From: Callorhinchus milii
Lineage: Eukaryota
Assembly (NCBI RefSeq): GCF_018977255.1
Contig: NW_024704742.1
Coordinates: 50,656,001 to 50,720,000 of the forward strand
Reading direction: 5' to 3'
DNA length: 64,000 nucleotides
Position 1 is the stretch's first letter, and every line of letters begins with the position of its first letter. Positions 4,570-27,618 of the stretch are shown here, piece after piece. The notes beneath the pieces are model-generated. The model was given only the letters and a program-made list of their open reading frames with translations, was not told the origin of the DNA and did not search any database. Position numbers and translations under genes: made by a program.

Positions 4570-4793
<224 letters not shown>

Positions 4794-11819: not shown

Positions 11820-12032
11820 TAATAATCCCTCCAAAAAAACAAAACAATAATAAATTGGTCATTTTCAATCCATGACTGTTTCTAGGACATTGCTGTGCGC
11901 AGTTGGCTGCCATGTTCGCCCACAAATATACAGTCAATTCACTTTACAGTATATTCTGTGAAGCCCTTTGGGACGCCTAGAAGACGTGAAAAGCGCTATA
12001 TCAAATGCAAGGATTATTATTATTATTAATAA
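11820..12032 (+). mobile_element. 5'-truncated SINE (one of many tail copies, e.g. ~2636, 14970, 22630, 23600, 38730, 43385, 49300, 54380)
   Basis: cagtcaattcactttacagtatattctgtgaagc...tatcaaatgcaaggattatt signature. Confidence 0.85.
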
Positions 12033-12064
12033 TACATGTTCAATGGCCAAGGCCCTCTGATTAC

Positions 12065-12296
12065 CTGCAAGGAGGGATCCCCTGATGAGTCTCATCATCA
12101 CACTTCGGCACAAGGATGGTGCATACGAAGAACATGAGGTACTTGTAACAGTTGGTCTCGACAAGGGTTGGGAACACAGAAAATGCCTTGCTTAATAACA
12201 CCTCTTTCTGGTTCCTATGGCCCATGAAGTTGGGGTAGATTGTGGAGTTGTATGGCTGATTCATGCAGAGTTCCAGAGAAATGGGCTCACATTTAC
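12065..12296 (-). CDS. corin: corin exon 11 equivalent: Frizzled CRD 2, N-half (KCEPISLELCMNQPYNST...NCYKYLMFFVCTILVPKCD...IPPCR)
   Basis: 232 nt, phase 1-2; ttcttcag|GT and AG|gtaatc. Confidence 0.97.
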
Positions 12297-12700
12297 CTGA
12301 AGAAGAAGAACATTTAAATGCATTTTTCTTTTCCATGACTCGAGTTTTGAAACCTTTGACAATGTGGATGTAAAGCAAAAAAAAGACACAAGGTTTGTTG
12401 TTATACTGTCTTTAAAATTGAAACTGCAGGTCTGTATTACTATAAGGCACTAAAAGGAAATGTATTTCCACTTAAAAACATAAGCAGACTTCCAATTGAT
12501 GATATCCATGGTACGTTCACCTAGAAAATACACACCCACTACATTCAAGGATACAGTATATCCTGTGAAGCATTTTGAGACACTTCAGCAATGTGATTAG
12601 GTGCTATAACAAATGTAAGGATTATTATTACTATTATTTTATGGCTTTCTATTCAACTATCTCAAACGTGCATCATTCAAATTGATTGGATCTAACTTAG

Positions 12701-12808
12701 TGCAGTTCATTCTATTACTTTGATCTGCACAACTAGAGCTTCCATTGCATGGATCAGCACAGGAATGTCCTACACAGGATTGAGCTCCTTCTTTACAAGG
12801 GCTCTGAT
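12701..12808 (-). CDS. corin: corin exon 10 equivalent: degenerate LDLa5 (DQSPCKEGAQSCVGHSCADPCNGSSSCADQSNRMNC); donor is non-canonical CT
   Basis: 108 nt; ctggcag|AT acceptor; the expected donor reads A|Ctaagt; 6 Cys without SDE, as in mammalian LDLa5. Confidence 0.88.
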
Positions 12809-13093
12809 CTGCCAGAGAACATAGAAAAAACAGGTGTGATTGTTGTTGACAACATGCAATCTTGATCAAACGGTCAGGAAATTCTATTCATGCCGTTCTT
12901 TGGTCAACCCATCACAAGGTAATCTTGAGATATACAGGAAAAGCAATCCTATATATTGCTTTTACAGTTCAGTTTTAATTCTGAAACTGGTTTTGAAGCC
13001 AATCTATTCAAGAACCATGGCAATTGTAGAACTTTCCAAAATTCTGCACGATCTTGGATTTTAACATGAGGAACGTCAGGCCTCAGATGTATA

Positions 13094-14012
13094 CAGTAAA
13101 ACTCCCATAAGTCTGATCTGTATAAATCATATAATCGCCTAAATCATACATTTACCCAAGTCCCATTGAAGTTCCTATTAAATCCACTTCAATTTATCTG
13201 CAAAAGTCGTATTAACAATCTCAGAACTCCCAATGCTGCTACTGCACTTGCCGGCTCCTGGGTCAAAACTTTGTTTTCCACGCCTATGTCCAACAGAGCA
13301 CCTCACATACTCATCCTGACTCTCTCCATGTCCTCCCTCCCAGGGTGTAACATCAACATCATCGCGCTTGGCAGTGTGAGGGGGGAGGCTGAGAGAGGAA
13401 AGAGCATCACCTGATCACGTGATGAACAAGGGATGCCTGAGTAAAGGGGACCCTTCACTGCATTCACACTTACCAGACTTGAAACAGCATAAACAGTGAT
13501 CCATGTGGAACCTCAGTCCACACCTCATGCTCATTTACAGGCTGCAATGATGCAGGACCACATGCGCAGTACAGAACACTGAACAAGTATAGAAGACAAG
13601 ATTTTGACCAGGCATCATGGCATCAGGCAATGCAGATACCCCAACTAAACACAAATTAAGTTTATATTCTATTAAAACAGTTCTGTTCTGAAACCTGTTT
13701 GGTTGTGCCAATCATTGTACAGGACATGTTTTCTGCACATGAGGTACACTACTGTGCAGTACTGGATATATAAACAATGGGCTACCATAGCTTTAATATA
13801 CATTGGTTAAACATGGTACAGAAACCTTGCCTTAATATCATCAGCCAGTTCAGTACTTGTTATTTATTATGTGTTAGTCATATAAAATCCGACTTATACA
13901 TAACTTTACATAAGTCATGTATAATACAGTCTAAGTTTCACATAACTCATGCTTTGCATAAGTCATATTAAATGTATGGTCTCAACTGATACAATTCATA
14001 TGAGGTTTACTA
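13094..14012. mobile_element. possible non-autonomous Tigger/pogo-like DNA transposon
   Basis: TA|CAGTAAAACTCCCATAAG ... CATATGAGGTTTACTA|TA degenerate TIRs with TA flanks. Confidence 0.4.
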
Positions 14013-15268
14013 TATAATAGGATACCTAGCAATACAGTACTTAAACTTTCACCTTTACCTTCCACCTCTGACTTAGTGTGATCCTAATCTATCACCAGGC
14101 ATGAACTGTGCCCCTGAAGAACTGACAGGAAATAAATCTACTGATTTTCCTAGTTCAGACAAGAGTGAGGAAGTTGGAAGAGTCTTTAAATCAATGGTGC
14201 AATTGTGCAGCCTGCTGTATTTACCTGCTGCTTGCAGTTCTGCCTTAAAATGGTCAGGTCTTGCCAGGTCTCAGTAACAAAGCTCTCATTTCATCTGCTC
14301 AAAAGGAGCCAAATAGGTAAGTTTCTACATTTCATGTAGAGGTGACTAGACAGGTTTTCACTGAGACTGATTGCTCATTCACTTCACGGCTGTTTATGGT
14401 ACATTACTCTGCTCGAATTGGTTGCCGCAATTGCTACAAAGCACAGTCACTCCACTTTACAGTATATTCTGTGAAGAAGCATTTTCAAATATCCACCTGG
14501 CAAGAAAGGCCAAATCAAATGTAAGAATTAGTATTATTATCACATTTAATCTGTTTCAAATGCCACAAATTTCACCCCATAAAGTCATATTAAAAATCTT
14601 AAGGTTGAATTATTTGTGTTGTAAAATTGTAATTACAGATATTTCTAAACGTATATAAATGAACTTGCAAAATTTACTGAATTGGGGAGAATAGTGTTTA
14701 ATTCACATTAATTAATGTGCTGCAAAGCAAAGTAGCAGTTAATTAACAGATGATTTTTTTCAACATTTCACTGAAATGCAAAAAAAACACAAAATAAGAG
14801 TAATTTTCTTTTAACAGAAACAGCTTTTTGAGTGAAAGAAATGGAGGAAGTTTGGACCTTTGACCATTCAGTGAGACCAATATACAAACATGAAATATTT
14901 AAAATACTTCTTGTAATTGATAACATTTAAAATTAACTTAATTTTTCACAATCACCAGTTTCTTGGCTAATAATAATAATCCTTGCAATTGTATAACGTC
15001 TTATCATGTCGTCACAACGTCTCAAAGCACTTCACAGAATATACTTAAAGTAGTTTTGACTGTGTATTTTCTGAGCAGCCAAATGTTCCGAGTCCTGACA
15101 TGGAGCATGAGCTTACAACCTTCTGACTGAGAGGCGAGAGTGCTTCCACTGAGCCGGGCTGACACACCAATGTGAATCTATAGTATTTGATTTATTTCAG
15201 AAATAAATTCTGTTTTTAGTCTTTTCATCTTCAAGTATTGGTGCTGGATTTTCAGAAGAATTACAAAC

Positions 15269-15394
15269 CAGTAGGAGAGGTAGAGCAGTTCACTTCATCA
15301 CTCCAGTCTTCACAGTCATTTTCACCATCACAATGGAAGAGCTTTAGGAAGCAATTGCCGTTGCCACAGTCCAGCATACCTTTGGCGCTGCAAG
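15269..15394 (-). CDS. corin: corin exon 9 equivalent: LDLa4 ([42 protein letters not shown])
   Basis: Not in the ORF track on this strand; read manually; 126 nt, tttttcag|CT acceptor, G|gtttgt donor (weaker, so the 3' boundary is less certain). Confidence 0.9.
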
Positions 15395-17228
15395 CTGAAA
15401 AAGGAGCAATATCAATGAGTTCAAAACCCTAAAGGCTTTCAAACAAAGCAATTCTCAGCACAGCATTCAAGAACTCTTAAAACCAATTATATTAATATGT
15501 AACAGAATGAGGAGTGAACTACTGCCTGAATTTGATTGATGTTTTGCAATATTCAGTGAGTTTGACTAAATCTAGAACATAGAAGGAAACCCTAAGCACA
15601 TGGGAAACAAGGCTGATAACTATACTGAAAAAAAGCTATGTTGGAATTCGTTGTGGGTGGTACCAAAACATGTAGCTTGTCCGTCCAGGTCATTTTAATG
15701 CAATTCTTGGAAATGTTTCTTAAAGAAGGGCTTTAGCATAGCAGAACTACACAGTGACCTTCTCCTGCAGAAGTCATCTGAGAGATAATTGTAATAATTT
15801 AGAGGCACTACAAGCTGACCAGTCTGCCGCGTTCTTCATTGCATCGCTTTGACGAGGCACTAAAATACTCTGACGTTGCTGGGCTCCCTGCTGCTCATTG
15901 CTGTTCAGTCTCTATCAGCCAACTCCTGGTAATGTGTACTTTATGATATCAGTTTATGAATTATAATTTTTTTTCAGATGGCACATAGGCAAACATTTCT
16001 TTATCGTGAATATCTCTTCACACTCCTGATGATGAAGCAGCTTCGAATGTGTTGTATATATTTCAATTATTGCAATAAAGCAATGCAGCTTTTGTCAGCT
16101 TCAGTTACAGACCCAGACACGGCATTACATAAGACAGACAGACAACCATGCTTTCTTAAGAAAGTTCAGTCTCATCTGGTTTAGTGTTGTGTTGGTGCTG
16201 ACACTCTACATGCCAGATCCTAGCAGTATATTTAGTTATGGTGTAGAACAGACAGATGGGATATTTATAGTAGAGCTGTGCTGACTGGATATGTCTGCCA
16301 GCAACTTTACTACAGCTGAACATGTTGCCAGGTCCTGACTAGCAGTGTCTGATGTCTGCTTTTACAAAGAGGCATTTAGACACTGCTTGGTAATGAAGCT
16401 CCCAATGGCAAACACAACATTAGAGTCAATGGAGTACCATTAGTCACTTAACTGCTGCTAAACAAAGCCACTGAGGCAATAAAAAGATGTGTTTCTCGTC
16501 CCAATCCCCAGCTCGGCTCCAAATCTTTCATTGGCCAGTGCCTTGCGAAAGGCTATACAAGTGTACTTTGTTGTTGTTGATAAAGAAACATATGAAGAAA
16601 TATTGCAAAATTTACCCTTCATTTTTTATGAGCTTTTTAGACCGTTTGAATTTCTTGTTTACACTAATGGATTGTTACTCACTAGCCCTGGTATGCTAAG
16701 GAGGTGTATTTGTGCTTAGTTTAGGGGACAAGGAGATATGTACTTGGCGTTCACCTGTCCATGTCACATGTATGATCTGATATTTGATCGATCATCTATT
16801 CTGACACAGACAAGAGACTGTAGCTTCCGCCGCAAGTCCAAAGACAGTGAGTGCAACTTTAAGCTCTATCAGAACTTAGCTGTGAAACAAACCTACACAG
16901 AAAGTGGTAAACATGTTATCCAAGGCAAAAAACATTGATCCAGTTATTGACTTAACGTTTTCTGGTGATATAGTGCAGATAAAGAGGGAAATTAGCTATT
17001 TGCCAAAGTAATCAACTAAAGGGTAGTGAAGGATTTTCTTTTTACTTTGGGCTCATACCGTTACACTACAAAGGTGTTTTCCGTTGCTGTACATTCTTAT
17101 GTACACTAAATCTGGTCTATGTGCCACTAATATTCAAAGCACACATTCCTAACTTCATTTCTAGCCAACATTACTGAAGTGCTTGTATGACTGAGCGGCT
17201 GTAGTGTTGTAGTGAGTTGAGGACTTAC

Positions 17229-17339
17229 AGCAGTTAACCTCATCAGAATAGTCGGAGCAGTCATGGTCTCCGTCACAAACCCACGACTTCAGGATACACC
17301 TGCCATCTCCACATCTGAAACCCACCTCTGGCTTGCACT
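17229..17339 (-). CDS. corin: corin exon 8 equivalent: LDLa3 ([37 protein letters not shown])
   Basis: 111 nt; ctacag|AG and T|gtaagt. Confidence 0.96.
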
Positions 17340-18733
17340 CTGTAGATAACACACAGTTTAAGGGCCTTGTCAACACATTACATCGCATTAACGCTGGCAC
17401 GAATTGAAGGAACACTTAAAAATACTGCGAATATTACCCTAATGTTTCTTCATAAAACCAGTCACTTAAACACAGTCCATTGATTGTTAGGGACTAATCA
17501 TCTGGAGATCAGTTTCCATATCAGTCTGACCTTTGTTCCCAACACAGTGATCTCATAGACCAGCCTGACACATCAGGTTAGTACTGGTGTGAGCCTTCAT
17601 TGTTAGAGGTGACATGTTTTGTTTAAGATATTAAAACTGGGATCTTCTGACTGTTCAGGAGGAATTTAAAGATTCCATGACACTATTTAAAAAGTGAAGG
17701 GAGTAGCTCATTGTGTCCTGGCCAACAATCTTCCATTGGACATTAATTGACATTTACTCCATGTCTATTTGTAAGATTTTCCTGTGTATAAAATGGCTCT
17801 TTGGCTAATTTAATCTCATCCTTCCAGAACAGCAACTTAAGTCTTCCCATTACAACACAATGTGGTTTAATTAGCTTTATGTCCTGACCTGACGTAAACT
17901 ACGCTTATTAATAACTCATAATAACTACTGATTACTTTCTGTCTAAAAAACGTACTTCCTGGCGTTTACTCTGAAATTGAACTTTTGTCCTGTTGTCTTA
18001 GAATAGCTCTATCTCATTTGGCGTTCATATATCTCCAAAGATCTCCTTAAAGTTATTTATTTTCAAGGCTGAAGAGTCCTATCTTATCTACTTGTTTCTC
18101 ATAGCTCATCCCTCTAACAACTCTTGTTGCGCTTGGTAGGACCTGGGAAGACTCCTTATGTCACACTCACCAGAACTGTGACCGTTACTCTTGGAGCAAC
18201 CCGACCAGAGACTATACAGCTTGAGCATGACCTCTGAGCATCTGACCTCAAATGATTTGGTAATAACAGCCCAGTCACTCTTTCACCTTGTTTTTCACCT
18301 TCCCTTGGTAGTTTTTACCTCATTCATGGTATGTACGTCTTCTATTTTGGCTTCCTATATTGTATTTATCTGTATTAAACATAATTTGCCAGTGAACAAC
18401 CAATGTGCTTACCCTATTTGGATTGCTTCCTGATTCCATAGCTCTCCCTAACTTACTTGGGTCTATAAAATTGAACTATCTGTAAATCCAGGTCATTTAT
18501 TTAGACGAGGAACAGGTGAGGACCCAGAGAAACTCCACTCAATACTTCCCCACATATCAACCGAGCGAGCATGAATGTGATTCCCATCTTCACATGTTCT
18601 GATTTATGTTCCAGTAAAACAGCACTGAACATCTACAAAAATGTAATGAAATAAAATGTTGATTTGCAAATATATATTAAGCACGGGCTTTGGTTGTTAG
18701 ACAGGGAAAGATGGTACATAGAGTGGTACTTAC

Positions 18734-18841
18734 CACAGCCCATTTCATCGCTGAGGTCCCCACAGTCATCATAGCCATCACATGTGTTATTGTAGAGTAT
18801 GCATTTTCCAGTGCCACACTGAAACTGGCTTTCACCACAAG
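18734..18841 (-). CDS. corin: corin exon 7 equivalent: LDLa2 ([35 protein letters not shown])
   Basis: 108 nt, phase 1-1; ccacag|CT and G|gtaagt; 6 Cys plus SDE motif. Confidence 0.96.
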
Positions 18842-19590
18842 CTGTGGACAAAGAACACCAAAAGCTTTAGATCTATTGACAATTTACATGAAGTTCAAAA
18901 TGTCTGCAAACTCAACTACTGCACTAAGCAATTCACATTTGAGCCAGTGGGCAATACCTCTGGTTTCGCATTTTTTTAATATCTTACAACCTCATTAAAA
19001 TAAGGTACATTATTCAGTCCTTTTCACTTCTTTCACTGCTCCCCAATGAGCCACCTTCAGGCAGGGAGTACAATGATGTGGTCTCAGTTAGCTCAGTACC
19101 TACCCAGAGTCATTGCCGTTCTGATCCTCCAACAGAGCACTTGTTGATTGCTTTTTTCTTGATAAAGTTAACATGACGTAGTAGACATCAGCCGACACAT
19201 AGCAAAACGAGCACAAGATTTAAAAACTCGCAGGACATTGTTTTGAATATATTGAAACATTTGGGTAAAAAACCATGGTCCATAGAGCATGGGGGCATCC
19301 TGGGGGCAAGTTTGCACGAAGCAGGAGAAGAGACAAGGTAAATTAACCCTAGGCAATCCCAAGCTTAAGTTTTAGAAGCCTTTTGTAGGAGGAAAGGAAA
19401 ACTGAGCGAAGTCAAGAATTAATTAATATCATAATTACTCAAAATCAGCTATAAGTGTCCAATATATATGCCACCAAAGCGGTATACACAATGGTTTCAT
19501 TTTCCCATTACATTACTTATCAATGAGTCTATGGAAATAGTGCAATGATTCTCTAGAGTCAATGAAGGAAAAGAAACAATAGTGACATAC

Positions 19591-19704
19591 TGCAGTGTGC
19601 CTCATCGCTCCAGTCGTCACAATCATTGTAGCCGTTGCACATCAGTTTCCTCTCGATACAGAAGCCGCTTCCACACAAGAAATTCTCAAGACCTCCACAT
19701 ATAG
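19591..19704 (-). CDS. corin: corin exon 6 equivalent: LDLa1 ([38 protein letters not shown]); acceptor is non-canonical AT
   Basis: 114 nt; A|gtatgt donor; [16 protein letters not shown] matches corin LDLa1; the expected acceptor reads tttttttgcaT|CT. Confidence 0.9.
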
Positions 19705-19789
19705 ATGCAAAAAAAGAAAAACACATAATCAAAGCTTCAGCACTGATATTTAAGCTGGCCAGAGTTGGCAGAGCAGTGGAAACAGATGA

Positions 19790-20000
19790 GGGAGAAGTGT
19801 TGCAAGAGATCACCAAGGTAGGATTGGGTAAGGCAGTGGACGCACCTAAAGGCAACGAGGAAGATGTTAAAATTGATTCATTGGGGAATAGGGAGCCAGT
19901 GGAGCCGGGACAAGGGTAGGGCCGCGGAGCCTATTGTGGGAAAGGTGCCGGCTGCAGAGTTCTGGTTGATCTGGAGCTTGTGGATAGTGAAGCTACCACG
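19790..20000 (-). mobile_element. L2 fragment
   Basis: IHKLQINQNSAA...RLHWLPIPQ. Confidence 0.75.
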
Positions 20001-20007
20001 TCCAGAA

Positions 20008-20428
20008 ATAATATAATAATAATGCATGCATTTGATATAGCGCCCTATCAGGTCCTCGAGACATCTCAAAGCGCTTCACAGAATATACTGTAAAGTGAAT
20101 TGATTGTATATTTTGCAGCAGCAAATAGCACACAGCAGTGACCCACAAACAGTCGTGGATTAGGTGACCACATCCATCTATCCACCCACCCACCCACCCA
20201 GCCAACCAGCCAGCCAGCCATCCATCCATTTATTTATGTTTTTTGAAGGGATTATTACCCCCGGAAAAGCGATCCGCCAATCGACCAACAACCAGGTTCC
20301 TACTTACTACTAGCTAAATAGAGGTGTGTGGAGTAAGGAATCTTGCGCAACGTTTCAGCCTGCCAGGAATCGAACCAGGTCTCTCGCTTGCAAGGTGAGT
20401 GCTATAACCACTGAGCTACAGGACTCCA
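20008..20428 (-). mobile_element. full-length tRNA(Ala)-derived SINE with an internal tetranucleotide repeat
   Basis: GGAGTCCTGTAGCTCAGTGG head, GGTTCGATTCC B-box, (ATT)n tail. Confidence 0.9.
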
Positions 20429-23400
20429 CAACAGGGCATTGGAGAGTTCAAGTCTGCAAGTGGGCAGAAGTTTCAGCTGCTTTGATGGTGAGGAGCAGAG
20501 ACGGATAATGTTGTTGAGAGAGAGGAAATTAGCCAGAGCCTGGATAAAAGTTTTAAAGGACATTAGAGAGTTGAACAAAACAAAATAAAAAATACAAAAA
20601 ATTCTCTGCCGTACGTTTCAATTGATATTTTTAAGATTTCTAACGTCGCATGAAACCCAGATACACAATACATATCTCTGATTAGCAAGTTCTCGATAAC
20701 CTGCTTTAATTAACAGCAACAAATTGCATTTATATAGTGCTTTTCACGTTGGGAAGAAGTCCCAAGGCGCTGCATTCGGTTGTAAACAAAACCAGATTAC
20801 GAAAGACCTCACTTCAGTACAGAGACATAATGTTTTCTTATGATTCCCATTAACGCAAAAACATCCACTCAATCATGACAATCTCACTGGTGTGTGGTAA
20901 CCAGAATGTTACATTTCTGCTTTGGCTGTTGTCATGGAGAATGCAAGTGCCACGTGGCACATTAGCTTAATTACCCACATAGCCACCATCTGTTACCCTG
21001 GAAGATACATTTTCCAGCTCCACAATGTATATTCTAGGCTATCAGATGTTCACATTTCTTTCCTCGCCATTTAACTTTAGAGTTCACCTAACACTGTGGC
21101 TTAACTACATAATGGGGCAGCAAGCTTACATGGAAATGAGACATTTCAACCATTACCTTAAAGATTATTTTGTGACTCAGTCTGAATGGAAATATACAAA
21201 CTAAGTGTTCATGCAGCGTACATGGTTCCTGGCACACAAAGACAACACAAATGGACAATAATAGGTTCAAATCCATTTTAACTGTATCACTGGTGTACAT
21301 TTGATTGTCATCTCAAATGAGTACCAATACTGATGAGATTCAGGATGGGTAGCTAGGTTTCATAGATGGCAATACATCTGTGGAACTCTTAGTTTGATTT
21401 GGATACTCTTAAGTGCGGTGATGAACTTGCGCATGTGTCAGACACCCAGTTGACCAAAGAAAAAAATCCATTTCTGTTTCTGAGCGAGATTACTTTATGG
21501 AAGCAGAGTGCTAAATGTTTTCCATAGCTAGCAATATGAGACCCAAACCAAGAAGGCATTTCTTCACGTTAGCTACACATTTGCAAGATTGGAAGGATCA
21601 CGGGATATGCGAAGAGCTGCAAAATCACAATTACTGTGGAAATGGAGTATTAGTCGGAGAGAAATATTCACGGAAAAGAAGCTCCAAACATTCCCTTAAG
21701 GCTGCTATTATAATATTAAGACTGAGAAGGTTACTTACATTTTCCATGTGTATTTACAGAAATCTATACATTCACAATGGAATCTTATTTGTGATATTCA
21801 CAAACTGCAAACCCTTCACTGTCCAGTGCCTTGGGACATCCTCCCGACATGAAAGGCGTTATATAAATGCAATTTGTTATTGATGTTGCATTTGCTCTAT
21901 TAATTGCGTCTTTAGTTTGCAGATAACAGATGAGGCTATAGTGTGGTAATACACTGGTGTAATTTCATACTACAGTATGAAAGCCTAGGTCCAATTGTAT
22001 CTGTAATACTAAAGATGGAAGTGCTCGCGGAGGAGGAGGAGGAAATAACATTTTCACACACTTATAATGGCAATAAATGTTTTAATAAAACACAGTAGAA
22101 ACCAAGAGGAAATTGGTCTATGTGAAATATAGTTACCTTTGTTCCTACAATTACAGGAACAGCTTTTGATTTCTTTAGCAGCCCCAAAACATAAGGCTTC
22201 AGGAAGCTGAACCAGCAGGTATGCTTAAACTACAGGATCCCAGCTCTACATCCTCCTTCTACATGCTCTCTGGGACCAACAGGAATAAAGAAATTAATGT
22301 GTTTCTTGTTCCACGATGATAAGAGATCCCAAAGGAGTGTTTTATTAAAAGAGCAGACACATTCATTTCTTGGCACACTAACTTGATTTGGGTTTTGTTA
22401 TAAATGGACTAACAATTCAGGAGTCTGCTAGAGATTACCACTAGTCTGCCATGATCCTTGGAATAACACTATTGTATGTTGAATTCAATGTGATACTGCT
22501 GGTATTGGGGAGGGAAGCCGATTGAACAGTGAAATCCATCATCACTGATCACTTTCAACAAATGCTGGTTTAGAAATCAACGACTGAACCAGATAGGTTC
22601 AGTCAATTTGCAGATTAGTTTTTCCAGGGTAATAATCCCTTCTAATATAAAATCACTCAGTCCATGACTGTTTGTGGGACACTGCTGTGTGCAATTGGCT
22701 GCCTCGTTCCGCCCACAAAATATACAGTCATTTCACTTTACAGTATATTCTGTGAAGCAATTTGAGACACCTCGACGTAAAAAGGCACTATTTCAAATAC
22801 AAGGATTATTATTATAGCACACACAAAGTGGATAGATTCGCAACACTCCTAGAATATAGCACACATAAATGGGGTAGGAATGTTCAGAGTGCCTGTTTTA
22901 GCCGTGATATGCTAGAGATGGTAAAGTACTGATATGTGATCAGATGCCACCCACGTGAGTTCAACTCTGCCACTGTGGAGAGACAGGAGCAGAGGTCATG
23001 TTCTTTCCCTAGGTGAGGGAGGAGGAAACGGAAATACTGGAAGGTCAGTTAGTCTATGAGGGCTTCTCTGAGCTGGAGCAGATGGGTGTGACAACCACAA
23101 GAGTTCTGTTCTCCCTATTAAGGTTAAATGAAATCATTCACTGAAGCTGAGAATGAATCACTTTTGCATTTCCTACTGTCTCTTTGTCTCTCTTTTCCAT
23201 CTTTCACATCATATCGACGTGAAAGGTGCTATACAAATGTAATTTTGTATTGTATTATATCTTCTTTAAAGATCACCAGGGTGCCAAAGGTCTCATGCGG
23301 ATTATAAAGTCCGAGCTGTCCAGACCAGAGGTGAAAAGTAGGGATGTATATTCTTTACTGTATTGTATTACAATTATTATTATTTATTTATTACAAGATC

Positions 23401-24423
23401 ACATCTGGTCTAATTTTTCCAGAACACTCATCCTACCATCTTTCTATTACAAAATCAAACTGTTTTTAAATGAGCCCAGCATTCTTGACACAACCACCTT
23501 TCCTGGCAACTTGTTTGAGTCATTAATTATCCTACTTCCTGGTGTCTGTCCTAAAATTGCCCTTTACACCTTAAGCTTACGTCCTCTTGTTCTGTTGTCT
23601 TAATAATAATAACAATTCTTGCATTTGATATAGCACCTTATCACGTGGTTGATATGTCTGAAAACGCTTCACAGAATATACTGTAAAGTGAATTGACTGT
23701 TTTTTGGGGGCAAAATAATAATAATAATAATCCTTGCATTTGATGGTGCCCTAACATATGACCCAAATCCTGTGGTTTGTCATAGGGTGTAAATTAGGGT
23801 AGAAATTTCAGCACAGGAAGATACTGTATGACTCAATGTTTTAAACCAGTGGTGGTTAACCTTTTTGGTCAACCAACCAAATATATTTTTCTTGATTCAA
23901 TATGTCCTGTTGGGTAAATTGACAATAGAATAGGCTTGTTTTCTACCATGCTTTTTGTGTGCTTTAGAAGAGAAAAATGCAAAGAAGTACAGAGAAGGAG
24001 CAGAGAATTTGGATTAGATTATATAGCTCCATTGTGGAAGCTGGCCTAAATGATCTCTTTCTGTGCTGTAATTTCTATGATTCCAATATCCCGTCTCAAA
24101 AAAACCCAATGGAAAATGAAACCTGGTAGTTATTCATTCAAGTGAATTAAATAGAATAAATATATCTGCGTACTTCAAGATTCCACTTCATTACAAATGT
24201 GTTTTATACACCAATGGTGCAATGTTCCAAGAAAAGAGCAGATTGAACAGCTGAGTGTTCTGTTTTTCTCTTTGACCGTGCCTTCAGCTCCCCTCTCGAC
24301 TCTCTTCCCCCTTCTCGCTCCCTCCCATCCCTCCCCTCACCCTGACCATTTCCCCCCTCCTCGCTCCCTCCCCTCCCCTCACCCTGACCATTTTCCCCCT
24401 GCTCGGGTCATGACCCAACTGTG

Positions 24424-24606
24424 CAGCGCCTTGGGACGTCCTCCTGACGTGAAAGGCGCTTTATAAATGGAATCTTGTTGTTGTTGTTGTTGTCCCGCCT
24501 ATCACTAAAGAGTTCATATCTTCCCATGGGGTCACCGTCCATACAACAACAACAAGATTCCATTTATTGAGCGCCTTTCACGTCGGGAGGACGTCCCAAG
24601 GCGCTG
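24424..24606. repeat. tail-to-tail inverted L2 3' ends, 64-bp arms
   Basis: Arms 24424-24487 and 24543-24606, 3 mismatches. Confidence 0.95.
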
Positions 24607-26694
24607 ACAAGATACACTAACATCTTGCCTGGACAAGATACAAGATACTCCCAAGGAAAAAAAACCACTTGCTCCTGCATTTTATAACTTATCATGTTGA
24701 AATATCTCAGTGTTTCACAAGTAATTGTTATCAAGCACTCCTACATAGTTTGAAAGTCACTATGTACTTTGTCTTTATGTGACTGGCCTTTACCTCTTCA
24801 GCAAAACAATGTTCCATACATTTTGGAAATAGAATGTTCGTTAAATGTCATCAAACTGCACTATTCTTTTCAGTTTCTTCAAATTAAAATAATTTACAAG
24901 TCAGCTTGACATTTTCCAGTTTATTGGTAAACTGAAGCAGAAAAATCTAAAAAAGGCATGTGGAAATCGGCAGAAAAATAAGACTACACAGACTACACTA
25001 AGCCAAATAGGCTTCTTCTGTGCTGTAAAATTCGATATCATTGTATGAACTGTTATCTCAAAGATGCAGAATCTTTAGATTTGAAACCAGTAAGTGATTT
25101 GTGACTGATAGTGTGCTGTTTTGTAACAGATTCAATGTGATATAACATCAAACCTATTATGAAATATCCCAAATTTCACCGCAATAATTATTTTTCAATC
25201 GCTAATAACTTGCACCATTACTGTAGCTCCCTTTTAAACTTAGTAATTAATGAGGAAATAGGCAGCTGCAAAGAGGAGGACATCTGAGTGGAATACTTAG
25301 TAGGAAGATTGTTGAATCATGCTGAAGCTCTTAAAACTATGTGCTACAAACAAGCTTCCCTGATTTGCAGCTATTAAACATGTACACTCACCGTACACCT
25401 TGCTATCAGGCGCCTATTTAACCCCAGCTGGTTTTTTGAAAAGTATCAAGGCTACAGCTACCATAACATTGATCACAAATTTTCACCATAAAAATACTTT
25501 TTTATTTACTTGCTCTGAACTTATTTTGTGGCATTACCAAGCTATAAGAACGTATCAGTGTGGGGACTTACTTGTACACAGTGACTATGAAAAGGAAATT
25601 GCACTGTTATTCACTTTTTTAATGTTGTGAACACCATCCTGGAACTCTGGAACTCCATCTCACAGAATTCAAGGGACTTTTTTAATACAAAGTAGGGTGC
25701 CTGTGTTCATAAATATTCACTATTTAGAGCTCAACGAATCGATGATAATTATCACAGTACATACAGCATTTTCACCCAAGGTTTTAAATTAAAGATAGAA
25801 ACAGAGCAAACGAGAATAGCCTACAAAGAGAGCAACAATCTCAAAGGGCTATCTATCATCTTGATAAAAAAATGTGTGTAAACACGAAAAAAAGATTTCA
25901 AGCATTTTGTATTTTTTCTCTAAACTATTGCACAATTGTAATTCAATGAAAGCCACTGTCATCCACTCCAGTTTAGGTTTTTTGGAGCAACTTGTTGTGT
26001 ATGCAGCCGTTTCCACTTGTTTGCTCATTGTGCAACAGCCAAAAAGAAACATTTGTCTTGTTTTAAATGAAGATTCAAAATAGGTTTTGGAAATGAGTCG
26101 CCTTAAAACATTGGGAAGTGTAGATAGTAGTTTCCCCGGTATGTCCATTTACCGCTTAGTCATTTGGTATGTAGTGTTGAGGACATGTCTACATCTCCAT
26201 TTTCACCTGATCAGACAGTTCACCCTTAGGGAGACTACTTATTTCCTTCCTTTTAACAATTGAGGCCAGAGTAACATAATTGGCTGACTACATGCTGTGA
26301 TTGTGACTAAGATGATTATCCTCACCAGCTGAATAATGAAAAGCCTGACATATTGTTTAATTGCAAACAGTAGGCACTTCATTCCTGGGCCGGAGTCTTT
26401 CGAATGGATCCCAATCTCCAAAGACATTCTTCACATTTCATAAAAATTAACATGTTCTCTTAAATCCCTCAGTGGGAGATTATTCATTAACTTTCTGCTC
26501 GGAGGAGGAGGCTTGGAGGATGTTTAATATGGAATCCAAATTAAAATCTTCTCAGTGAGATTAAGCTGCACAAAAGCTTCTAGAAGCACTGTACTCCAAC
26601 ATACTGTATTTTTAAAGATCATTAAAGTCATTTTTTTTAACAATTTTCTCAGATAAACATGTTTTTTCAGTAAAAGTTAATCGGTAAAAAAAGC

Positions 26695-26965
26695 AGCTTG
26701 TATCCTCTCCAGCACTAGGCTCCACAAGTTCATCACCCCCATCCTCACTCAGCTCCACTGACTCCCCATCCCCGAGAGCATCAAGATCCTCGTCCTCACA
26801 TTGAGATCTTCACACTCACTTCAAATCACTTCATGCCCGAGCACCTCCTACCTCTCTACCTGATTACACTGTGTTCTTCTACCCATCCCCTTCACTCAGC
26901 TGACTACGGCGTTCTACACATCCCTCAACCCCTCCACCATCAGCAGCCGTGCCTTCAGCTTTCCC
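26695..26965 (+). mobile_element. L2 3' fragment
   Basis: catcacccccatcctcactcagctccactgactccccatc matches the L2 copies above. Confidence 0.75.
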
Positions 26966-27303
26966 TGTACAGGGCATTTAGAATATCCTCTGACTGAGTG
27001 ACCACTAACGCACTTCTCCTTGAATTTGATATAGTGGTTTATCATGTTGTCAAGACATCTCAGAGCACTTCACAGGATTTCTTGTTAACTTCAGTGACTG
27101 TATATTTTATAGCAAAATGTAGCAGCCAATTTACACACAGCGATGTCCTATAAACAATCGTGAAGTGAGTGACTAATTTTATCCAGGGGATTATTAGGCC
27201 TGGAGACAACACCTACAGAAATCACAGAGCAGGTGATCTCACCTTAGTCCCTTAACTCCAAACCCAGGAAACAAAGTAATCAGGCAATAAACACTTAACT
27301 TAC

Positions 27304-27485
27304 ATATTTTCGCTTTGCCTTTTTCAGGCGAAAAGCATATCCCGCTGGTGTTTTCCATTTCTGTGTCATTGACAAACCAGGAGCAGTTGAGAATCTCTGG
27401 CCATTCAGCGTTCACCTCCAGCAGTAAGGGCTCACAGCCTTTCTTTGCAGCCTCACAGAAGGACATGCAGGGTAGAATTACTGTT
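27304..27485 (-). CDS. corin: corin exon 5 equivalent: Frizzled CRD 1, C-half (TVILPCMSFCEAAKKGCEPLL...WPEILNC...CFSP)
   Basis: 182 nt, phase 2-1; atttag|A and T|gtaagt. Confidence 0.95.
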
Positions 27486-27618
27486 CTAAATAAATCAGAC
27501 AATATGTGAACATTGTAGCGTCTTTAATGTCTAAAAAGCACATTTTTATATTAGATTTGGAATTGTAATCAACTTATTTCATTCCTGTTATTGTACAGAT
27601 GGGAGCAGGAATAGGCCA

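What the first reader, a model, noticed from the sequence alone, without database searches (positions are those of the whole stretch)
19690..19737. corin LDLa1 exon acceptor reads AT instead of AG, with two in-frame rescue AGs
Seen: a strong pyrimidine tract ends ttttttgcAT|CTATATGT at the boundary giving a 114-nt exon (plus-strand a at 19705). The donor of this intron is U2-type gtaagt, so a U12 explanation does not fit. A downstream GAG (exon start 19692) deletes 12 nt and recreates the first Cys across the junction (T|GT, giving KI-C-LENFLC). An upstream AAG (start 19734) adds 10 residues in frame. Known: LDLa1-4 and Fz1 are reported to be needed for pro-ANP processing. Inference: a compensated acceptor shift, a rare GT-AT intron, or an error.
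Basis: partly seen in the sequence, partly recalled or inferred. Interest (0 to 1): 0.7.

Follow-up and report, generated by a model that had tools for sequence, protein, structure and literature searches.

The report
Shifted splice acceptor in elephant-shark corin
In the elephant shark's corin gene a likely ancestral splice signal reads AT instead of AG, and the assembled RNA joins the exon at the next AG twelve bases on, which drops four amino acids but rebuilds a conserved cysteine, so the protein likely still works; such splice-site shifts are a known, ordinary kind of change.

Summary
The window is Callorhinchus milii corin. The AT is not an assembly error: contigs of two DNA samples carry plus-strand A at 19705 (X1; X2); a third was inconclusive. 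A spliced contig from one RNA run (X6) joins the exon ending at 27304 to 19692; no contig showed 19704, 19734 or skipping, but contigs drop minor forms. All 5 RefSeq/UniProt models of this species already read KI-C-LENFLC. The 12 bypassed bases still spell I-C-G-G at the position where relatives start the exon, so this is likely a recent in-frame acceptor shift to the first AG after the pyrimidine tract. Cys1 is rebuilt across the junction; Cys1-Cys2 spacing falls from 7 (113 of 123 parsed models) to 5. A second broken site lies 7 kb away: the exon at 12808-12701 has a ctaagt donor and is skipped in the same RNA contig. It is a tidy new example of a known class (PMC4914097). No earlier scan note on corin was found.

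The parts
27304..27485 (-). corin Fz1 second exon (182 nt); ends in phase 1 with T, donor gtaagt
   Evidence: its last 30 nt equal the loose end of the RNA contig at 19692
19727..19733 (-). predicted branch point (TTGAT, A at 19729; -25 from the old site, -37 from the used site)
   Evidence: only yUnAy match in 19780-19700; motif consensus recalled; not tested
19709..19722 (-). polypyrimidine tract
19705..19706 (-). dead acceptor, AT instead of AG (inferred ancestral site)
   Evidence: base also in DNA runs X1 and X2
19693..19704 (-). 12 nt of former exon, now intron (would read S-I-C-G-G); its last two bases are the AG in use; X2 carries a variant at 19704
19591..19692 (-). LDLa1 exon as spliced (102 nt); first two bases complete the Cys1 codon
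   Evidence: RNA contig piece 19591-19692, record 1030-1131; RefSeq XP_007890902.1
19735..19737 (-). upstream in-frame AAG, not seen used; lies 5' of the predicted branch point, 9 of 19 pyrimidines upstream
18734..18841 (-). LDLa2 exon (108 nt), joined canonically to LDLa1
   Evidence: joint 18841-19591 with CT..AC ends
12701..12808 (-). 108-nt Cys-rich exon between LDLa4 and Fz2 (LDLR5 in the eight-repeat numbering, my reading) with donor ctaagt; skipped in the RNA contig

Best explanation
A likely recent AG-to-AT change killed the likely ancestral acceptor of the corin LDLa1 exon in the elephant shark, and the assembled mRNA joins the exon at the next AG, 12 bases downstream, in frame. Shown: the AT base, the 27304-to-19692 join, the loss of four residues and the rebuilt Cys codon (T from the upstream exon plus GT). 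Inferred: the spliceosome keeps the old branch point and pyrimidine tract and takes the first AG downstream; that AG already lay latent across the Gly-Gly codons (GGA-GGT); the change could spread because frame and all six cysteines survive. Predicted, not shown: the module still forms the Cys1-Cys3 bond with a Cys-x5-Cys start, a module length also seen in complement C6 and C9, and corin remains an active protease.
For: RNA: X6 contig (2698 nt, depth 173.6) has the piece 19591-19692 and a loose end equal to the end of the upstream exon. DNA: A at 19705 in X1 and X2. Annotation: 5 of 5 C. milii models read KI-C-LENFLC; the exon chain built from the window is an exact substring of RefSeq P0001. 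Ancestry: read from 19704 the junction gives linker 12 and spacing 7, the state of 103 of 123 parsed models (11 of 134 not parsed); all 54 shark and ray models that hold the region have spacing 7 (counted by eye); LCGG (57) and VCGG (12) are common among 161 non-C. milii models, against ICGG in the bypassed bases; two ray isoforms that join other upstream exons place the exon start one split codon plus one codon before Cys1, as at the AT site (P0157, P0166). Scanning: no AG between 19735 and 19694. Constraint: LDLa1 from Cys2 onward is as conserved as in sharks (79% against 77-78% identity to six bony vertebrates); X2 has a variant at 19704, inside the bypassed bases. Module length: the spliced module spans 34 against 34 residues of C9 and 35 against 35 of C6, but 35 against 36 of LDLR.
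Against: Only 1 RNA run shows the join; the other 2 candidate runs laid on the site (X11, X7) laid nothing. Contigs drop minor isoforms, so shares of use are unknown. The database models probably rest on the same assembly as the window. The DNA runs are one study, and contigs can hide a rare C allele. No other chimaera was reached, so the date of the change is inferred from the undecayed 12 bases only. The shark exon boundary is inferred from protein models, not DNA. The AlphaFold model gives pLDDT under 50 for residues 336-343, which include Cys1 (mean 58, no control), so the disulfide is not shown. The used site has G at -3, the weakest NAG (recalled), and an out-of-frame AG lies 8 nt further on (19686-19685).
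Confidence: 0.9

Rival explanations
1. A true U2-type GT-AT intron: the AT at 19706-19705 is still used, as the main or a sizeable form, and keeps the 114-nt exon.
For: Strong tract, branch-like motif at -25 and undecayed I-C-G-G codons. A U2-type GT-AT intron conserved in human and mouse is reported for DGCR2 (PMC1557818, passage seen).
Against: The one RNA contig uses 19692; 0 of 5 species models use 19704; X2 has a changed base at 19704. Low-level use cannot be excluded with contigs.
Confidence: 0.03
2. Assembly error or private allele: the real base gives a canonical AG.
For: A single-base change at an almost invariant dinucleotide; X3 was inconclusive and contigs collapse heterozygotes.
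Against: X1 and X2, which differ from the window at other places, both have A at 19705, and the RNA bypasses the site.
Confidence: 0.01
3. The shift is real but is a sign of decay: corin is under relaxed selection in this lineage, and the rebuilt Cys is luck and does not pair.
For: A second broken splice site in the same gene (ctaagt donor, exon skipped). More C. milii-unique than shark-unique changes in several domains, for example protease 26 against 9 (p=0.006) and Fz2 19 against 2 (p=0.0002) with Heptranchias and Latimeria (no correction for 42 tests). Low model confidence at Cys1.
Against: The frame is open over 1084 aa with activation site and catalytic motifs present; the LDLa1 core is not faster than in sharks; against sawfish the protease shows no excess (16 against 15 and 16 against 17); skipping of the other exon is common (15 other models of 115; stingray, manta, horn shark and lungfish models).
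Confidence: 0.05
4. The upstream AAG (exon start 19734, ten extra residues) or skipping of the exon is the main route.
For: Both keep the frame.
Against: Neither appears in the RNA contig or in any of 5 models; the AAG lies 5' of the predicted branch point and has a weak tract.
Confidence: 0.01

Closest known systems
Evolutionary splice-site shifts (Sharma et al., CESAR, PMC4914097; 12 of 25 passages seen)
   Same: The orthologous acceptor is mutated, the exon stays, and a nearby in-frame site replaces it; the paper uses 360 transcript-supported cases from mouse, rat, cow and dog.
   Different: The paper says most shifts are 3 or 6 nt. This one is 12 nt into the exon, removes a conserved Cys codon and rebuilds it across the junction.
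Vertebrate corin LDLa1 exon (sharks, rays, bony vertebrates)
   Same: Same gene and exon order; six cysteines and the acidic DCDDWSDE motif are kept.
   Different: Cys1-Cys2 spacing is 5, not 7. One bat model (Miniopterus natalensis, P0036) also has 5, with a normal linker.
LDLa modules of complement C6 and C9 (PDB 8b0f_B, 8b0g_H)
   Same: Equal span from Cys1 to Cys6 in the match table (35 against 35, 34 against 34).
   Different: Unrelated proteins. The alignments were not displayed; that these modules start Cys-x5-Cys is recalled.
U2-type GT-AT introns such as DGCR2 (PMC1557818, passage seen)
   Same: U2-type donor and good tract ending in AT.
   Different: There the AT is the reported boundary and is conserved between species; here the RNA bypasses it.

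Membership tests
Evolutionary splice-site shift | Orthologous splice dinucleotide is mutated in the species, not by sequencing error | tested here: met
   A at 19705 in X1 and X2
Evolutionary splice-site shift | Transcript uses a nearby, frame-keeping site | tested here: met
   X6 contig joins 27304 to 19692; one run only
Evolutionary splice-site shift | Relatives use the old position | tested here: met
   protein level only: spacing 7 in 113 of 123 models and isoform joins in two rays; no relative's DNA was available
U2-type GT-AT intron | Transcripts end the intron at AT | tested here: not met
   the one contig ends it at the AG 19694-19693; minor use not testable with contigs
U2-type GT-AT intron | U2-type donor and pyrimidine tract | tested here: met
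   gtaagt and the T tract
U12-type intron | RTATCCT donor (consensus recalled) | tested here: not met
   donor is gtaagt
LDL receptor class A module (PF00057) | Score above the Pfam cut-off | tested here: met
   48.5 bits against 24.1 for the exon from Leu after Cys1; 7 stretches in P0001 as in the shark P0138
LDL receptor class A module (PF00057) | Six cysteines and acidic calcium motif | tested here: met
   Cys 343, 349, 354, 361, 367, 376 in P0001; DCDDWSDE present
LDL receptor class A module (PF00057) | Cys1-Cys3 disulfide and calcium-dependent fold | tested here: inconclusive
   model pLDDT under 50 at 336-343; block means 59-77 over 341-380
Pseudogene | Broken reading frame or no spliced transcript | tested here: not met
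   spliced contig and open 1084-aa model

The most novel reading that the evidence does not exclude
Elephant-shark corin has recently been remodelled by two splice-site losses 7 kb apart, which shorten LDLa1 and remove the LDLR5 exon, together with faster change in Fz2 and the protease. This would mark a change of substrate (pro-CNP or a non-natriuretic target) in a lineage whose heart hormone is CNP, and give a natural variant for testing how corin's stem recognises its substrate.
Probability: 0.12. Interest if true: 0.45.

Novelty: new member of a known kind. Interest (0 to 1): 0.2.

Why it matters
Modestly. It is a clean, still readable example of how an acceptor mutation can be fixed: the old site, the bypassed codons and the replacement site are all visible, and the replacement rebuilds a conserved cysteine. 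It also warns that an AT at an orthologous acceptor is not evidence of a GT-AT intron or of gene loss. The spliced product is already in RefSeq and UniProt models, so the protein is not new. It would matter more if the two splice losses proved to be tied to a changed substrate.

Tried and rejected
No whole genome is held for this window, so no genome-wide control and no paralog search. One search listed no holder on record as RNA; the RNA labels are guesses, and X6 counts as spliced RNA only because of its CT..AC joint. laid four runs on 12000-27560; repeats filled the joint and loose-end tables, so X3 and X5 gave nothing usable at the junction. X11 and X7 laid nothing on 18700-19800, which is no evidence either way. 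A search for shorter relatives found 1 protein, from a bichir, and no chimaera; no other holocephalan appeared among the 120 listed of 393 hits. I considered that sharks had slid this intron (donor read through as Cys-Lys, acceptor moved); two ray isoforms place the exon start before S-C-K-E, so I dropped it. The epaulette shark model P0009 differs from its relatives just before Cys1 and was left unexplained. The AlphaFold model of P0001 is too weak at Cys1 to judge the disulfide, and no shark control was folded. The primary domain-deletion paper on corin was not held. Literature searches for corin with elephant shark (1 unrelated hit), for Callorhinchus with natriuretic peptides and for corin splice variants showed no title on this site; I saw only the listings, and the library lacks most subscription journals. 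No paper supplements were read; those of PMC4914097 hold the distribution of shift distances, which I did not see.

Full report
Identity. The minus strand carries exons of corin: tblastn of the RefSeq model places exons from 59718 down to 2173. The Fz2 exon at 12296-12065 is 100% identical to Callorhinchus milii corin (XP_007890902.1). No whole genome is held for this window.

The observation. The upstream donor after 27304 is gtaagt. Between 19800 and 19670 there are five AGs; those giving exon starts 19734 and 19692 are in frame, those giving 19754, 19742 and 19684 are not, and 19694-19693 is the first AG downstream of the tract. One branch-like motif (TTGAT, A at 19729) lies 25 nt before the AT and downstream of the upstream AAG (consensus recalled).

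Is the base real? One search listed 24 runs, 11 of which hold part of the query stretch. I laid 3 of the 4 genome-sized runs (one study). The X1 contig over 19117-20039 has two other letters, both accounted for at 19304 and 19311. The X2 contig over 19528-19800 has one other letter, G to A at 19704. Both therefore read A at 19705. X3 covers the site, but 9 of its 27 differences were hidden by the cut table. Contigs collapse heterozygous sites, so a rare C allele is not excluded; an assembly error is.

Which acceptor is used? In run X6 one contig of 2698 nt (depth 173.6) holds 19692-19591 at record 1030-1131 and 18841-18734 at 1132-1239, joined over CT..AC ends. Its loose end beyond 19692 equals the last 30 nt of the exon ending at 27304. 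So the join is 27304 to 19692. X11 and X7 laid nothing there. This is one RNA run, and contigs drop rare forms. All 5 of 5 C. milii database models read KI-C-LENFLC, and the exon chain Fz1b to Fz2a built from the window is an exact 286-residue substring of P0001. These models probably use the same assembly, so they are not independent for the DNA base.

Which state is ancestral? Of 134 corin proteins, 123 could be parsed: Cys1-Cys2 spacing is 7 in 113, 5 in 6 (five C. milii models and one bat model), 6 in 2 and 8 in 2; linker 12 with spacing 7 occurs in 103. Read from 19704, the elephant-shark junction gives exactly 12 and 7. All 54 shark and ray models that hold the region, from 19 species, have spacing 7 (by eye; two fragments without the region left out). 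Two ray isoforms that attach other upstream exons put the exon start one split codon and one codon before Cys1 (P0157, P0166), the same offset as the AT site. The bypassed bases read I-C-G-G, against LCGG (57), SCKE (33) and VCGG (12) among 161 other models; the pattern occurs at 27 of 127,976 window positions. The AT is therefore the remnant of the old acceptor (inference from proteins; no relative's DNA). That the 12 bases have hardly decayed suggests a recent loss; the X2 variant at 19704 fits release from constraint. No other chimaera was reached.

Mechanism. Shown: AT base, join to 19692, four residues lost, Cys codon formed from T plus GT. Inferred from established splicing rules (recalled): the branch point and tract are kept and the first AG downstream is chosen. 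That AG straddles two Gly codons, so it was likely latent before the loss. Only a shift that keeps frame and cysteines would be expected to spread, so the neat rescue is best read as survival of a tolerated change and not as an adaptation. Predicted: the module still folds. From Cys2 on it is as conserved as in sharks (79% against 77-78%), passes the Pfam cut-off, and matches complement C9 and C6 modules over equal spans (their Cys-x5-Cys start is recalled). AlphaFold did not settle this: mean pLDDT 58, under 50 at residues 336-343.

A second broken site. The 108-nt exon at 12808-12701 is followed by ctaagt. In the X6 contig the distance from the end of LDLa2 to the start of Fz2 is 237 nt, the sum of the two exons of 111 and 126 nt, so this exon is skipped; RefSeq X1 and X2 skip it too, while the three UniProt models include most of it with other boundaries. 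It still has an open frame, six cysteines and 24 of 35 identities with the sevengill shark. Its C was not confirmed in DNA runs. Skipping is common elsewhere: 15 other models of 115 parsed, and stingray, manta, horn shark and lungfish models. Elephant-shark corin has more unique changes than sharks in Fz2, LDLa6-8 and the protease in some comparisons, but in the protease not more than sawfish (42 uncorrected tests). Mild relaxation is possible; decay is not shown.

What is known. Splice-site shifts are a described class: 360 transcript-supported cases in four mammals, mostly 3 or 6 nt (PMC4914097, 12 passages seen). U2-type GT-AT introns exist but are rare (DGCR2; PMC1557818, 12 passages seen). 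Fz1 and LDLR1-4 are called critical for pro-ANP processing in human corin (PMC4256174, 4 passages seen; the primary paper was not held). Furin is said to matter more for pro-CNP (PMC9138375, passages seen), and CNP is named as the shark natriuretic peptide released from the heart (PMC11000733, 7 passages seen; PMC9219612, 2 passages). That cartilaginous fish lack ANP is my recall. PMC10454581 added nothing. Searches listed no paper on this site.

Verdict. Real, explained and ordinary in kind: an in-frame acceptor shift already built into the public gene models. Novelty: new member of a known kind. Interest 0.2.

Noticed in passing
window 12808-12701 (minus), donor at 12700-12695: 108-nt Cys-rich exon between LDLa4 and Fz2 has ctaagt instead of gtaagt and is skipped in the RNA contig; still open with six Cys and 24 of 35 identities to the sevengill shark, so likely a recent loss.
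   Followed up: partly
window 19704: DNA run X2 has G to A (plus strand) at the first base of the former exon, one contig at depth 7; it would be a non-synonymous change if the old acceptor were used.
   Followed up: partly
window 19686-19685 (minus): A second GAG 8 nt past the used acceptor would give an out-of-frame product; its use is unknown.
   Followed up: no
window 4570-4793: About 56 copies of AGAA lie directly before the LDLa8 acceptor and form its pyrimidine tract on the minus strand.
   Followed up: no
P0009 (Hemiscyllium ocellatum) and P0036 (Miniopterus natalensis): Models with odd LDLa1 starts: the epaulette shark differs from its sister genus over six residues before and after Cys1; the bat has Cys1-Cys2 spacing 5. 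Possibly independent changes or prediction errors.
   Followed up: no
P0163, P0176 (stingray, manta): These two rays' corin models lack the LDLR5 exon, and the stingray's is the most diverged of the nine cartilaginous fish compared.
   Followed up: no
window, e.g. 2633-2737, 20010-20114, 23603-23722: A short interspersed repeat family ending in AAT runs occurs in ten or more copies; L2-like fragments at about 41600-40600 and 36500-36100 (family names recalled).
   Followed up: no
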